Below are positions 1,305 through 2,608 of a stretch of 11,240 nt of DNA, in pieces. The stretch comes from Candidatus Falkowbacteria bacterium (GTDB lineage Bacteria; Patescibacteriota; Patescibacteriia; CAIXNZ01). The stretch lies in NCBI GenBank assembly GCA_903920975.1, contig CAIXNZ010000090.1:1-11240 (forward strand), read 5' to 3'. Under the pieces are notes generated by a model. The model worked only from the letters and a program-made list of their open reading frames with translations, had not been told where the DNA came from and did not search any database. A program made the position numbers and the translations under genes. Position 1 is the first letter of the stretch, and every line of letters starts with the position of its first letter.

Positions 1305-1317
1305 CTTTTTGTTTGCC

Positions 1318-1346
1318 TTGACATTTTATAATTTTTGTGATAATAT
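1318..1346 (+). promoter_or_regulatory. Sigma70 promoter of paralogue cassette 1
   Basis: TTGACA (1318..1323), 17 nt, TAATAT (1341..1346) preceded by TGA (extended -10-like). It is nearly identical to the promoter at 1956..1984. Confidence 0.75.
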
Positions 1347-1358
1347 TAGATATTAAAT

Positions 1359-1377
1359 CCATATCAAAGTGGTATGG
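1359..1377 (+). promoter_or_regulatory. Conserved hairpin/palindrome about 7 nt after the predicted TSS of cassette 1
   Basis: CCATATCA-AAG-TGGTATGG: 8-bp arms with one G-U position. It sits at the same place as the perfect copy at 1997..2015. Confidence 0.55.
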
Positions 1378-1444
1378 TCTGGCCGCGAATACCGGCTGGA
1401 GAAAGTACTTTGTAAATGCATATACTTGCGAAATAGGAGGGGAA

Positions 1445-1903
1445 ATGATTAAGAACAATGAGAGCTTTGTAGCTGCCGTAGATTACGGTTTAACCCTGGA
1501 TCAGATGATTGATAATTGCAGTTTTGACGTAATACAGAAAGATATCAATAAAAAAAATTTTATCGTTTCTGGAGTGGGTTTACAGAAAGTTGAATTATCT
1601 CTGTTACATATTAATCGGGTGATAACGACCGAAGAAGTATTATCACTTATGGATAAAGGAAATTTGGTCCCTGCTAGACTAGAACATTTATTGGCCATTA
1701 TTCCAATTTTTTCAAAAATGTATACAACATTTCCACCCGTAATAGCACTGGGAACTATTTGGAAAGATGGGACGGGCCAATATTGCACATATTTTACAAT
1801 GGGTCATGGACTAGGCAGACGGCTCCTTGTTGACTGCGCGACTAATGCTGCTGATAAAGGTCAATGGCGTGCGATGTCTCGCTTTCTCGTTGTTCGTAAA
1901 TAA
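1445..1903 (+). CDS. Paralogue family member P1 (152 aa), uncharacterised cytoplasmic protein ending RFLVVRK
   Basis: ATG at 1445 is preceded by AGGAGGGG. The ORF-track start at 1337 lies inside the promoter and is rejected. Motifs shared with P2 and P3: VDY, xM(I/V), FD, NFI(V/I)xG, EL, ARLEHL, ALG(T/S)IW, RFL(V/A)VRK. Confidence 0.85.
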   Translation: MIKNNESFVAAVDYGLTLDQMIDNCSFDVIQKDINKKNFIVSGVGLQKVELSLLHINRVITTEEVLSLMDKGNLVPARLEHLLAIIPIFSKMYTTFPPVIALGTIWKDGTGQYCTYFTMGHGLGRRLLVDCATNAADKGQWRAMSRFLVVRK

Positions 1904-1918
1904 TTTTTAGGTATTTAA

Positions 1919-1947
1919 CCCCTCATCTGAAAAGGTGAGGGGTTTTT
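1919..1947 (+). terminator. Rho-independent terminator of cassette 1
   Basis: CCCCTCA (1919..1925) / TGAGGGG (1936..1942) followed by TTTTT. Confidence 0.8.
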
Positions 1948-1955
1948 CTATTGCC

Positions 1956-1984
1956 TTGACATTTTATTAATTTTGGGATAATAT
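1956..1984 (+). promoter_or_regulatory. Sigma70 promoter of paralogue cassette 2
   Basis: TTGACA (1956..1961), 17 nt, TAATAT (1979..1984). The surrounding TTGCCTTGACATTTTAT...GATAATAT is duplicated from 1313..1346. Confidence 0.75.
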
Positions 1985-1996
1985 AATATATCAAAT

Positions 1997-2015
1997 CCAT
2001 ATCATGGTGATATGG
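1997..2015 (+). promoter_or_regulatory. Conserved hairpin/palindrome about 7 nt after the predicted TSS of cassette 2
   Basis: CCATATCA-TGG-TGATATGG: perfect 8-bp arms with a 3-nt centre. Confidence 0.55.
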
Positions 2016-2068
2016 TTACATTAACGATATTAGCAGGTTCATTTAAAAATTTAAAAAAGGAGGACGAG

Positions 2069-2563
2069 ATGGGTATCATAGAATATCTTGTGAAGACAAA
2101 ATCGCATAAAGTTATCGTAGATTACGATTTAACCTTTTCAGAAATGGTTAAAAGATGCAACTTTGATACTGGGGTTAGCGATAACTTGAATGAAAAAAAT
2201 TTTATTATCAATGGGACTGGGCGGCATGAATGCGAATTGGTACTAGTTCATTTTAGGGAGCACAATCCTACAAGCAAAATATTGGAGTATATGAATGAAC
2301 ATGGATTAGAGGCGGCTAGGCTCGAGCATCTATTTGCACTTGTGCCAACTTTCCCAATACGCCCTGATCCTAAGTCGAACCAGTTTTTCCATATAATAGT
2401 TCTCGGCAGCATTTGGAAAAATGATGGTAATTATTATTGCCCTATCGTATATGTTGATTGGGGATTGCAACTGGGGCTTGATTGCTCTGCTCATGATGAG
2501 GGACGTCATACACAGGATAGAATTTGGGATCCAATTCCCAGGTTTCTTGCGGTTCGTAAATAA
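2069..2563 (+). CDS. Paralogue family member P2 (164 aa), ending RFLAVRK
   Basis: ATG at 2069 is preceded by AAGGAGGA with 5-nt spacing. The ORF-track start at 2012 lies in the leader. It aligns with P1 over its full length at roughly one third identity by eye. Confidence 0.85.
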   Translation: MGIIEYLVKTKSHKVIVDYDLTFSEMVKRCNFDTGVSDNLNEKNFIINGTGRHECELVLVHFREHNPTSKILEYMNEHGLEAARLEHLFALVPTFPIRPDPKSNQFFHIIVLGSIWKNDGNYYCPIVYVDWGLQLGLDCSAHDEGRHTQDRIWDPIPRFLAVRK

Positions 2564-2578
2564 ATTTTTATATTTAAA

Positions 2579-2608
2579 TCCTCGCATATTTTATGTGGGG
2601 ATTTTTTT
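2579..2608 (+). terminator. Rho-independent terminator of cassette 2
   Basis: TCCTCGCATA (2579..2588) / TATGTGGGGA (2592..2601) forms a 10-bp stem with two G-U pairs, followed by TTTTTTT. Confidence 0.7.

What the first reader, a model, noticed from the sequence alone, without database searches (positions are those of the whole stretch)
1305..2608. Tandem paralogue cassettes whose non-coding flanks are far better conserved than their coding sequences
P1 (1445..1903) and P2 (2069..2563) are clearly homologous. Shared blocks are VDY...M...FD...KNFI.G.G...EL...H...ARLEHL.A..P...LG.IWK...YC...RFL.VRK. By eye they share only about one third of residues. In contrast, their promoter plus early leader (1313..1379 vs 1951..2017) is nearly identical: TTGCCTTGACATTTTAT..GATAATAT..AAATCCATATCA...TATGGT. 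The 3' flanks are too: CGTAAATAATTTTTAGGTATTTAACCCCTC vs CGTAAATAAATTTTTATATTTAAATCCTC. A third, more divergent member (P3, 9899..10372) sits in the other island under a different leader. All three lack signal peptides or TM segments and have no catalytic motif I recognise. This pattern fits multi-copy, individually expressed, fast-diverging ~150-aa cytoplasmic proteins with homogenised flanks. Similar patterns are seen in arrays of orphan immunity proteins, anti-defence or defence specificity modules, and other families under diversifying selection. I do not know of any characterised function for this family.
Basis: partly seen in the sequence, partly recalled or inferred. Interest (0 to 1): 0.72.

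Follow-up and report, generated by a model that had tools for sequence, protein, structure and literature searches.

The report
Orphan DGR-target paralogues in reused expression slots
The two tandem genes (and a third nearby) belong to a large, unnamed Patescibacteria protein family that retroelements (DGRs) hypermutate in other genomes, and their well-conserved flanks are promoter, leader and terminator "slots" that a related genome also has, but with unrelated genes in them.

Summary
P1 and P2 share 37-40% of residues and 54% of nucleotides, with synonymous sites saturated. A 73-nt upstream block is 84% identical, against 37-55% for other strong promoters in the window.

The family is not an orphan. 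A profile of the three proteins finds 2,721 cluster representatives, mostly in Patescibacteria, with no Pfam, NCBIfam, PHROG, PADLOC or PDB match.

In 26 of 80 related loci the last ~140 nt of the gene is repeated downstream. Of the 653 mismatches, 509 fall at template adenines, and an Avd gene and a reverse transcriptase follow. The family is therefore a DGR variable-protein family. It probably corresponds to the undescribed "clade 2" CPR targets.

The window has no template repeat, reverse transcriptase or Avd gene. P1-P3 are orphan, divergent members.

The flanks are not homogenised paralogue flanks. In a related genome (STA_35) P1's promoter, 5' hairpins and terminator flank an unrelated 233-aa ORF. 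P3 sits in a duplicated copy of the neighbouring 63-aa gene's leader and terminator. Between the two genomes synonymous sites are near saturation, yet these modules keep 78-93% identity. They are selected regulatory elements that are reused with swapped ORFs.

Verdict: new members of a known kind, of moderate interest.

The parts
1218..1305 (.). REP/MITE-like element with GCGAAAAC...GTTTTCGC ends. It abuts the P1 slot, and its 3' end (GTTTTCGCCC) is also kept next to the slot in the relative STA_35.
   Evidence: Read. Repeat families D3, D5 and D9. Weak Rfam hit to AaHKsRNA41. Alignment.
1306..1378 (+). Slot module copy 1. The -35 hexamer TTGACA is at 1318-1323, followed by a 17-nt spacer with TG, and the -10 hexamer TAATAT at 1341-1346. 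The predicted start is about 1353-1355. A 5' stem-loop CCATATCA-AAG-TGGTATGG lies at 1359-1377.
   Evidence: (D2). Hairpin -7.6 kcal/mol, z -3.3. Orthologous block in L092 8933-9036 at 83.8%. One compensatory A-U to G-C change and one U.G to C-G change in the STA_35 stem.
1378..1400 (+). Second leader hairpin (GUCUGGCCGCGAAUACCGGCUGG). It is shared by P1 and the STA_35 slot (21/23) but not by P2 (7/23).
1445..1903 (+). P1 CDS (152 aa), a divergent member of the DGR variable-protein family. The VR-equivalent segment is about 1757-1900 and ends in RFLVVRK.
1917..1944 (+). P1 intrinsic terminator. It is orthologous to the terminator of the unrelated 233-aa ORF of STA_35 (21 nt, GAAAAGGTGAGGGGTTTTTCT, identical).
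1944..2016 (+). Slot module copy 2. The -35 hexamer is at 1956-1961 and the -10 at 1979-1984. The 5' stem-loop CCATATCA-TGG-TGATATGG lies at 1997-2015.
   Evidence: The motif occurs only at these two sites in the window; 0.11 matches expected by chance.
2069..2563 (+). P2 CDS (164 aa), a family member. The Shine-Dalgarno AAGGAGG is at 2057-2063. The VR-equivalent segment is about 2399-2560 and ends in RFLAVRK.
   Evidence: 79.9 bits, E 1e-20 against the DGR-linked profile. AlphaFold model with pLDDT 89.8.
2576..2604 (+). P2 intrinsic terminator. Homology to the relatives resumes at 2598.
8796..9019 (+). Promoter and about 190 nt of structured leader for the 63-aa gene (9020-9211). It has a 5' hairpin at 8846-8870. 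An anti-SD GACCTCC at 8881-8887 pairs at long range with the Shine-Dalgarno GGAGG at 9011-9015.
   Evidence: MFE -60 kcal/mol, z -5.7. Orthologue in L092 17486-17922. Alignment.
9692..9898 (+). Duplicated copy of that promoter and leader, now in front of P3. The 5' hairpin is at 9744-9767 and the anti-SD at 9778-9784.
   Evidence: Repeats D6, D7 and D15. MFE -50.9 kcal/mol, z -4.2. 64/69 to the geneA copy and 64/71 to the STA_35 copy in the 5' part, and 40/43 to STA_35 in the 3' strand.
9899..10372 (+). P3 CDS (157 aa), the most divergent family member. Only the N-terminal two thirds align to the DGR-linked profile.
   Evidence: 57 bits, E 1e-13, profile positions 43-135.
10377..10419 (+). P3 terminator, a copy of the geneA terminator (9213-9255, 77%) and of the STA_35 one (81%).
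   Evidence: (D1).

Best explanation
P1, P2 and P3 are divergent members of a large, unannotated Patescibacteria family of about 150-residue alpha/beta domains. In many genomes this family is the variable (target) protein of a diversity-generating retroelement. The last ~45 codons form the variable region. A template repeat lies 330-500 nt downstream, and a reverse transcriptase and an Avd gene follow.

In this contig the three genes are orphan copies. There is no template repeat, RT or Avd gene. The CTTGG-type post-VR hairpin and the 5'-UTR motif seen in relatives are also missing.

Each gene is a separate transcription unit placed in a conserved 'expression slot'. For P1 and P2 the slot is a strong sigma-70 promoter plus a stem-loop about 5 nt from the predicted 5' end of the mRNA. 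I infer that this stem-loop stabilises the mRNA or acts as a regulatory element. For P3 the slot is a promoter plus a ~190-nt leader that sequesters the Shine-Dalgarno sequence.

These slots are under purifying selection. They have been duplicated, and they are refilled with different ORFs in related genomes. That is why the flanks look far better conserved than the coding sequences. The coding sequences are old, fast-evolving paralogues. How the ORFs are swapped is inferred, most likely by recombination on the shared flanks at a variable hotspot bordered by REP-like repeats.
For: Family:
- A profile of P1-P3 finds 2,721 representatives at E <= 1e-3 and 743 at E <= 1e-10.
- No Pfam, PHROG, PADLOC, NCBIfam or PDB-sequence match.
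- Genome hits are overwhelmingly Patescibacteria.

DGR link:
- In 26 of 80 loci the 3' ~140 nt of the gene is repeated downstream.
- 509 of 653 mismatches lie at adenines of the downstream copy.
- RVT_1 and bAvd domains were confirmed in L025, and RT and Avd homologues occur in 31 and 32 loci.
- A profile made only from 23 DGR-linked targets scores P1, P2 and P3 at 102, 80 and 57 bits.

Orphan status:
- No RT or Avd homologue in the window.
- No second copy of any 3' 60-mer at >= 70% identity.
- 32 of 58 family loci with enough flank also lack a DGR.

Slots:
- P1's module 1296-1399 matches STA_35 L092 8933-9036 at 83.8%.
- P1's terminator matches that of an unrelated 233-aa ORF there (hhalign probability 0.8%).
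- P3's leader and terminator are copies of those of geneA, whose orthologue with the same leader exists in STA_35.
- Closer relatives L093 and L094 have no island at all.

Selection on the modules:
- dS between the window and STA_35 runs from 0.85 to saturated.
- The P1 module still keeps 57/73 identity, and the 5' part of the island-2 leader keeps 64/69.
- The hairpin stem shows a compensatory change between genomes.

Analogous case: L052 has 165 nt of 100% identical upstream DNA in front of paralogues only 32% identical.
Against: - No transcription data exist. The start site, and so the '5'-terminal' position of the hairpin, is predicted from the -10 hexamer only.
- The hairpin is also a DNA palindrome (perfect in P2), so a protein operator is not excluded.
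- P1 and P2 modules are slightly closer to each other (61/74) than to STA_35 (57/73 and 54/73). Some gene conversion or a more recent duplication therefore remains possible.
- The C-type lectin fold expected of DGR targets is not demonstrated. Foldseek gave E >= 0.45, with TM 0.3-0.44 to C-type lectin domains.
- Only one genome at useful distance was available, so 'slot reuse' rests on two window cases plus L052.
- The rest of this genome is unseen, so a remote DGR acting on P1 or P2 cannot be excluded.
Confidence: 0.6

Rival explanations
1. The flanks of the paralogues evolve in concert. Gene conversion or a recent partial duplication keeps the P1 and P2 flanks alike while the ORFs diversify.
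For: The identity boundary after the hairpin is sharp, 83% falling to 33% within 15 nt. P1-P2 module identity of 61/74 is a little higher than either copy to STA_35 at 57/73 and 54/73. L052 shows 100% identical upstream DNA including part of a neighbouring gene, which must reflect a recent DNA-level event.
Against: The same module, second hairpin and terminator are kept across genomes whose synonymous sites are near saturation, and there they flank an unrelated ORF. Selection alone therefore explains the level of identity. P1 shares 21/23 of the next 23 nt with STA_35 but only 7/23 with P2, which shows orthology rather than within-genome homogenisation.
Confidence: 0.2
2. P1 and/or P2 are active remote targets of a DGR encoded elsewhere in the genome. 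Their coding divergence would then be driven by ongoing mutagenic retrohoming.
For: Family membership, including the conserved ...RF(L)xVRK-stop end that coincides with the VR/TR 3' boundary in relatives. The VR-equivalent segment is the least conserved part of P1/P2. Remote targets are known for DGRs (PMC7517822, PMC8144416).
Against: No template repeat in the contig. P1 and P2 differ by indels in the VR-equivalent segment, so they cannot share one template. The CTTGG-type post-stop hairpins seen in relatives are replaced by plain terminators. Exactly identical P1, P2 and P3 sequences were recovered on 4, 2 and 4 contigs. Divergence is also high outside the VR: 39/104 residues identical. The closest relative's family locus (L017) has a template-like repeat but no RT, so it looks like a decaying element.
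Confidence: 0.12
3. The conserved 8-3-8 inverted repeat just downstream of the -10 hexamer works at the DNA level as an operator for a dimeric repressor that co-regulates the slots. It would not be an mRNA 5' stem-loop.
For: It is a perfect palindrome in P2 and lies at about +5 to +23, a classic position for a roadblock operator. A conserved small cysteine-rich 117-aa protein of unknown function is encoded divergently nearby (459-812).
Against: In P1 the symmetry is broken at the DNA level but kept as a G.U pair in RNA. In STA_35 the stem sequence changes (A-U to G-C, U.G to C-G) while pairing is mostly kept (7 of 8 pairs). That fits selection on structure better than on a sequence-specific half-site. 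No DNA-binding domain was detected in the neighbours.
Confidence: 0.25
4. An array of orphan immunity, anti-defence or defence-specificity genes, or integron-like cassettes with the hairpin as a recombination site.
For: The genes are small, tandem and individually expressed, and they sit in a variable hotspot. Motif-ORF-motif-ORF layouts are typical of attC arrays (PMC5737381).
Against: No PADLOC or PHROG hits. No toxin, secretion, integrase or recombinase gene in the window or in syntenic loci. The cassettes carry promoters, the repeat is only 19 nt, and it lies 5' of the ORF, unlike attC sites.
Confidence: 0.05

Closest known systems
DGR variable (target) proteins, in particular the unannotated targets of the Patescibacteria-restricted DGR clade 2 (Roux et al. 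2021, PMC8144416)
   Same: Sequence family shared with proteins that have a C-terminal VR, a downstream TR with adenine-specific mismatches, an Avd gene and an RT. The proteins are small, with no transmembrane or known domain, as reported for CPR targets (PMC8144416). Weak resemblance to C-type lectin domains.
   Different: No TR, RT or Avd gene in this contig. No post-VR CTTGG hairpin and no R1 leader. P3 has lost recognisable similarity in the VR part. I could not check directly that this family is one of the paper's protein clusters.
Non-diversified or remote paralogues of DGR targets, as described in cyanobacteria (PMC7517822)
   Same: Paralogues of variable proteins are dispersed or duplicated away from any RT. 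That paper interprets them as dispersal followed by loss of the diversification machinery.
   Different: A different protein family and phylum. Here the paralogues sit in reused promoter/leader/terminator slots, which that work does not describe.
5'-terminal stem-loops that stabilise bacterial mRNAs (ompA-type) and SD-sequestering leaders (RNA thermometers, riboswitch expression platforms). This comparison rests on my own background knowledge.
   Same: A stable hairpin within a few nt of the predicted 5' end. For P3, a long-range anti-SD/SD helix in a leader with z -4 to -6.
   Different: No experimental 5' end, no Rfam match and no identified ligand or factor.
Integron gene cassettes / attC arrays
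   Same: A repeated structured element alternates with unrelated or divergent ORFs at a variable locus.
   Different: The element is 5' of the ORF, includes a promoter, is only 19 nt of palindrome, and no integrase is present.

Membership tests
DGR variable-protein family of Patescibacteria | Significant sequence similarity to proteins whose 3' end is a verified VR | tested here: met
   A profile of 23 DGR-linked targets, with the window proteins excluded, scores P1 101.7 bits, P2 79.9 and P3 57.0.
DGR variable-protein family of Patescibacteria | A VR at the 3' end paired with a template repeat showing adenine-specific mismatches | tested here: not met
   No repeat of the P1, P2 or P3 3' ends in the 11.2-kb contig. 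Elsewhere in the genome is not testable.
DGR variable-protein family of Patescibacteria | A DGR reverse transcriptase and an Avd accessory gene nearby | tested here: not met
   phmmer with the L025 RT and Avd sequences finds 31 and 32 loci but not the window. The ORF list shows no RT-sized ORF.
DGR variable-protein family of Patescibacteria | A C-type lectin fold that carries the VR | tested here: inconclusive
   The model has pLDDT 89.8. The best PDB hits are C-type lectin domains, but with E >= 0.45 and TM 0.3-0.44. No viral match.
DGR variable-protein family of Patescibacteria | A conserved C-terminal ...RF(L/A)AVRK-stop that coincides with the VR/TR 3' boundary (IMH-like end) | tested here: met
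   P1 ends RFLVVRK and P2 ends RFLAVRK. P3 (YYLVFKKQ) is degenerate.
DGR variable-protein family of Patescibacteria | A post-stop CTTGG-periodic hairpin, and the R1 5'-UTR motif seen in many relatives | tested here: not met
   P1 and P2 have plain terminators instead. The best R1 match in the window has E 0.93 and lies elsewhere.
Integron cassette array | An IntI integrase, attC sites 3' of promoterless ORFs | tested here: not met
   No recombinase ORF or domain. The repeats are 5' of the ORFs and contain promoters.
Polymorphic-toxin immunity or anti-defence arrays | An adjacent toxin, secretion or defence gene, or a match to defence-system models | tested here: not met
   No PADLOC hits. The neighbours are hydrogenase, rsmE, hypA, pgk, eno and gpmI.
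Sigma-70 promoter plus intrinsic terminator units | TTGACA-17-TAnnnT upstream, and a GC-rich hairpin plus T-run downstream | tested here: met
   10/12 matches for both promoters. Terminators at 1917-1944 and 2576-2604.

The most novel reading that the evidence does not exclude
Patescibacteria keep a small set of strongly conserved 'expression slots' (promoter, structured 5' leader and terminator, next to REP-like repeats). These would act as portable homology arms, so that whole ORFs, including members of the DGR-target family, are exchanged precisely between strains. This would be a cassette-exchange layer of variation acting on top of DGR hypermutation. The 5' hairpin and the SD-sequestering leader would be new cis-regulatory RNA classes.
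Probability: 0.15. Interest if true: 0.7.

Novelty: new member of a known kind. Interest (0 to 1): 0.42.

Why it matters
It turns three 'hypothetical proteins' into recognisable members of a DGR target family. This family is one of the main, still function-less, hypervariable protein families of the candidate phyla radiation. It also shows that such genes persist as orphan, independently expressed paralogues.

The finding corrects an attractive but wrong inference, homogenised flanks around diversifying genes. The flanks are conserved regulatory slots that are reused for unrelated ORFs.

Two by-products could be followed up. The first is a covariation-supported RNA motif in the 5' UTRs of DGR targets that has no Rfam match. 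The second is a conserved SD-sequestering leader shared by unrelated genes.

Tried and rejected
- A word-indexed search with P2 alone returned only P2 itself.
- Pfam gave only sub-threshold noise: DUF5726 at 19 bits and UPF0228.
- PHROG, PADLOC and NCBIfam gave no hits. A PDB profile search gave none.
- The first AlphaFold run, with 3 sequences, was poor at pLDDT 59. The second, with 106 sequences, was good.
- Foldseek against PDB and BFVD gave no significant match.
- Rfam found nothing credible in the window. All nine hits were below gathering score.
- Rfam also found nothing on the leader motif in 12 related loci.
- The covariance model of the relatives' leader motif does not match the window.
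- A metagenome scan for the hairpin module gave 7 hits. All lie inside unrelated sequence with no promoter context, so I treat them as chance matches.
- A putative third, degenerate module copy after P2 (2592-2670) did not hold up in alignment.
- The 233-aa STA_35 ORF was tested as a hidden family member. hhalign probability was 0.8% and there was no Pfam match.
- The search for related loci with the 106-sequence alignment failed because no block was conserved enough. It worked with 7 consensus-like sequences.
- No template repeat of the relatives resembles the P1-P3 3' ends.
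Full report
**Observation.**
P1 (1445-1903) and P2 (2069-2563) are real paralogues. 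BLASTP gives 37% identity, E 3e-32. P3 (9899-10372) is a more distant member, 29-35% identical over about 80 residues.

In a codon alignment P1 and P2 share 40% of residues and 53.6% of nucleotides. Third positions are at 43%, pS is 0.70 (dS about 2, saturated) and dN is 0.57.

The upstream blocks 1306-1378 and 1944-2016 match at 61/73 without gaps. That is significantly more than coding sites as a whole (p = 5e-7) or third positions (p = 5e-9), and more than the best 73-column coding stretch, which reaches 44/73.

The match is not just promoter consensus. Four other strong promoters of the window, aligned on the -35 hexamer, share only 37-55% with these blocks.

The block holds three elements:
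- TTGACA, 17 nt, then TAATAT;
- the predicted transcription start;
- an 8-bp stem with a 3-nt loop (CCATATCA-nnn-TGrTATGG).

Identity collapses to about 33% right after the stem.

The 3' similarity is weaker. Part of it is the last two codons plus the stop codon, and the rest is AT-rich spacer. A second, independent ENA contig shows the same gene order.

**What the proteins are.**
No curated library recognises them: Pfam, NCBIfam, PHROGs, PADLOC and PDB sequences all gave nothing. Even so, they are not orphans.

A profile of the three proteins finds 2,721 cluster representatives at E <= 1e-3 and 743 at E <= 1e-10. These occur as single domains, as two or three tandem domains, with a ~50-residue helical N-terminal extension, or fused to DnaJ. 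The sources name them only 'hypothetical protein'.

Eighty loci from species-representative genomes are almost all Patescibacteria, several with multiple copies per genome.

With 106 homologues AlphaFold gives a confident model, pLDDT 89.8 and pTM 0.86. It has no significant structural neighbour. The best PDB hits are C-type lectin-like domains at TM 0.3-0.44 with E >= 0.45.

**The family is a DGR target family.**
In 26 of the 80 loci, scanning all ORFs with the family profile gave a second, partial hit to profile positions ~140-185 only. This hit lies about 330-500 nt downstream of the gene.

I aligned the gene's last ~140 nt with that copy. Of 653 mismatches, 509 fall at adenines of the downstream copy. 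That is the signature of a template repeat (TR) and a variable region (VR).

In L025 the TR reading frame is Asn-rich. It is followed by a bAvd-like gene on the opposite strand and an RVT_1 reverse transcriptase. Homologues of both occur in 31 and 32 loci.

VR/TR homology ends at the stop codon, just after the conserved ...RFLAVRK. A profile built only from 23 such DGR-linked targets scores P1 at 102 bits, P2 at 80 bits (both aligned end to end) and P3 at 57 bits (N-terminal two thirds only).

This fits the literature. A DGR clade restricted to Patescibacteria has targets that lack any recognisable transmembrane or conserved domain and may carry new C-type lectin variants (PMC8144416).

**What is missing here.**
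- The window has no RT or Avd homologue.
- It has no second copy of any P1, P2 or P3 3' 60-mer at >= 70% identity.
- Plain intrinsic terminators replace the CTTGG-periodic hairpins that follow the stop codon in most relatives.
- The structured 5'-UTR motif of relatives is absent.

P1 and P2 differ by indels in the VR-equivalent part, so one template could not serve both. Exactly identical P1, P2 and P3 sequences were seen on 4, 2 and 4 contigs.

Orphan copies are common in the family. Of 58 loci with at least 2.5 kb of downstream sequence, 32 have neither TR nor RT. Dispersed, non-diversified paralogues of DGR targets are already described in cyanobacteria (PMC7517822).

**What the flanks are.**
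The hydrogenase large subunit led to a related genome, STA_35 (GCA_028714455.1), whose locus L092 is syntenic. Core genes are 72-86% identical in nucleotides, and dS runs from 0.85 to saturated.

In STA_35 the P1 module is present at the same place. This covers the end of the REP-like repeat, the promoter, hairpin 1 and a second hairpin. Window 1296-1399 matches L092 8933-9036 at 83.8%.

P1's terminator is there too, with 21 identical nt. The ORF between them, however, is an unrelated 233-aa protein (hhalign probability 0.8%, no Pfam match).

The hairpin stem differs between the genomes by one compensatory pair (A-U to G-C), one U.G to C-G change and one mismatch.

Closer relatives L093 and L094 have no island at all. 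There the order is 74-aa gene, GSDH, hydrogenase.

In the second island, P3's promoter and leader (9692-9898) and its terminator are copies of those of the neighbouring 63-aa gene. That gene is conserved together with its leader in STA_35. Homology stops at the start codon and resumes a few nt after the stop codon.

That leader folds into a 5' hairpin plus a long-range helix pairing GACCUCC with the Shine-Dalgarno sequence, z -5.7 and -4.2. Its 5' 70 nt are about 90-93% identical in all three copies.

Neutral sites between the two genomes are near saturation. Identities of 78% (P1 module) and 93% (island-2 leader) across genomes therefore show purifying selection on the non-coding modules.

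A third, independent example is L052. Two paralogues only 32% identical follow 165 nt of 100% identical DNA that includes the end of a neighbouring iscU-like gene.

**Mechanism, with status.**

Shown:
- family membership;
- the DGR nature of relatives;
- the absence of DGR parts from the contig;
- orthology and duplication of the flanks;
- replacement of the ORFs;
- cross-genome constraint on the modules.

Inferred:
- the hairpin acts as a 5' mRNA stem-loop (stability or regulation) rather than an operator;
- slots are refilled by homologous recombination on their conserved flanks, at hotspots bordered by REP-like repeats;
- P1 and P2 are no longer diversified.

dN between P1 and P2 (0.57) is 3-10 times that of orthologous genes between the two genomes (0.05-0.22). 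This fits a fast-evolving ligand-binding family, but no dN/dS above 1 can be claimed at this level of saturation.

**Rivals.**
Gene conversion of the flanks is not needed, and P1's leader being closer to STA_35 than to P2 beyond hairpin 1 argues against it (21/23 versus 7/23). A contribution cannot be excluded, because P1-P2 module identity is slightly higher than cross-genome identity.

An active remote DGR cannot be excluded without the rest of the genome.

An operator reading of the palindrome remains possible.

Immunity, anti-defence or integron readings have no support.

**Verdict.**
The genes are new, orphan members of a known kind of system (DGR variable proteins). The conserved flanks are reused regulatory slots under selection.

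Noticed in passing
Related loci, e.g. L016 5743-5787, L014 5767-5810, L008 5735-5777, L052 4917-4961 and 5907-5949 (32 sites in all): A ~44-nt structured RNA motif (GGCaaGCCUGGGG, a hairpin, then UGAGGGGCaaGCC) lies 15-60 nt upstream of the start codon of DGR-target family genes. All 32 matches in 779 kb are at that position. 95% of cells are paired, and 81 cells have double changes against 23 in shuffles. There is no Rfam match at gathering score. It is absent from the window.
   Followed up: yes
window 8831-9019 and 9727-9898; L092 17520-17689: A ~190-nt leader shared by two unrelated ORFs (the 63-aa gene and P3). It has a 5' hairpin, and a long-range helix pairs GACCUCC with the Shine-Dalgarno sequence. 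z is -5.7 and -4.2. The 5' 70 nt are about 90-93% identical between copies and across genomes. No Rfam match. It is a candidate translational control element.
   Followed up: partly
window 1218-1305, 2650-2740, 4784-4866, 8668-8787, 10429-10520: REP/MITE-like palindromic elements of at least two types (CCTGAGCTTGTCGAAGG...CTCAGCATGAC and GTAGAGACGC...GCGTCTCTAC). Several have GCGAAAAC...GTTTTCGC ends. They border both variable islands, and some give weak Rfam hits to AaHKsRNA41.
   Followed up: partly
Related loci, the 60 nt after the stop codon of family genes (e.g. L024 6210-6260, L038 1014-1060, L019, L073): Long imperfect hairpins built from periodic CTTGG units directly follow the VR in most family genes, including many without a nearby RT. 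They may be the DGR target-recognition hairpin of this clade.
   Followed up: partly
L052 4727-4890 versus 5718-5880: 165 nt are 100% identical and include the 3' end of an iscU-like gene plus a promoter. This DNA is duplicated in front of two family paralogues that are only 32% identical. It is either a recent Campbell-type insertion or an assembly join.
   Followed up: partly
L017 5764-6944 (STA_35): A family gene with a template-like repeat whose frame is Asn-rich, but only half of the mismatches are at adenines. No RT or Avd gene is present, and a tyrosine recombinase lies next to it. It looks like a decaying DGR in the closest available relative.
   Followed up: partly
window 1211-2741 versus L093 6501-7782 and L092 7597-9998: The space in front of the hydrogenase large-subunit gene is a gene-content hotspot. 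It holds GSDH only in L093 and L094, GSDH plus the 233-aa slot in STA_35, and P1 plus P2 without GSDH in the window. The hydrogenase small and large subunit genes are thereby separated by several kb.
   Followed up: yes
L092 11302-11652: A stand-alone Avd-like gene (23S_rRNA_IVP/bAvd) lies between the hydrogenase gene and rsmE in STA_35. It is absent from the window, where the gap 4010-4080 is only 71 nt.
   Followed up: no
L023, L059, L064, L068, L071 (upstream of family genes); also L011, L034, L062, L078: Two further leader types occur upstream of family genes. One is AT-rich and has no Shine-Dalgarno sequence (TTTTTTAAAAAtAtTAATAACCAyATAAAAC). The other is CCCnnAACCUCGGGCAGAGGGAA followed by a hairpin.
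   Followed up: no
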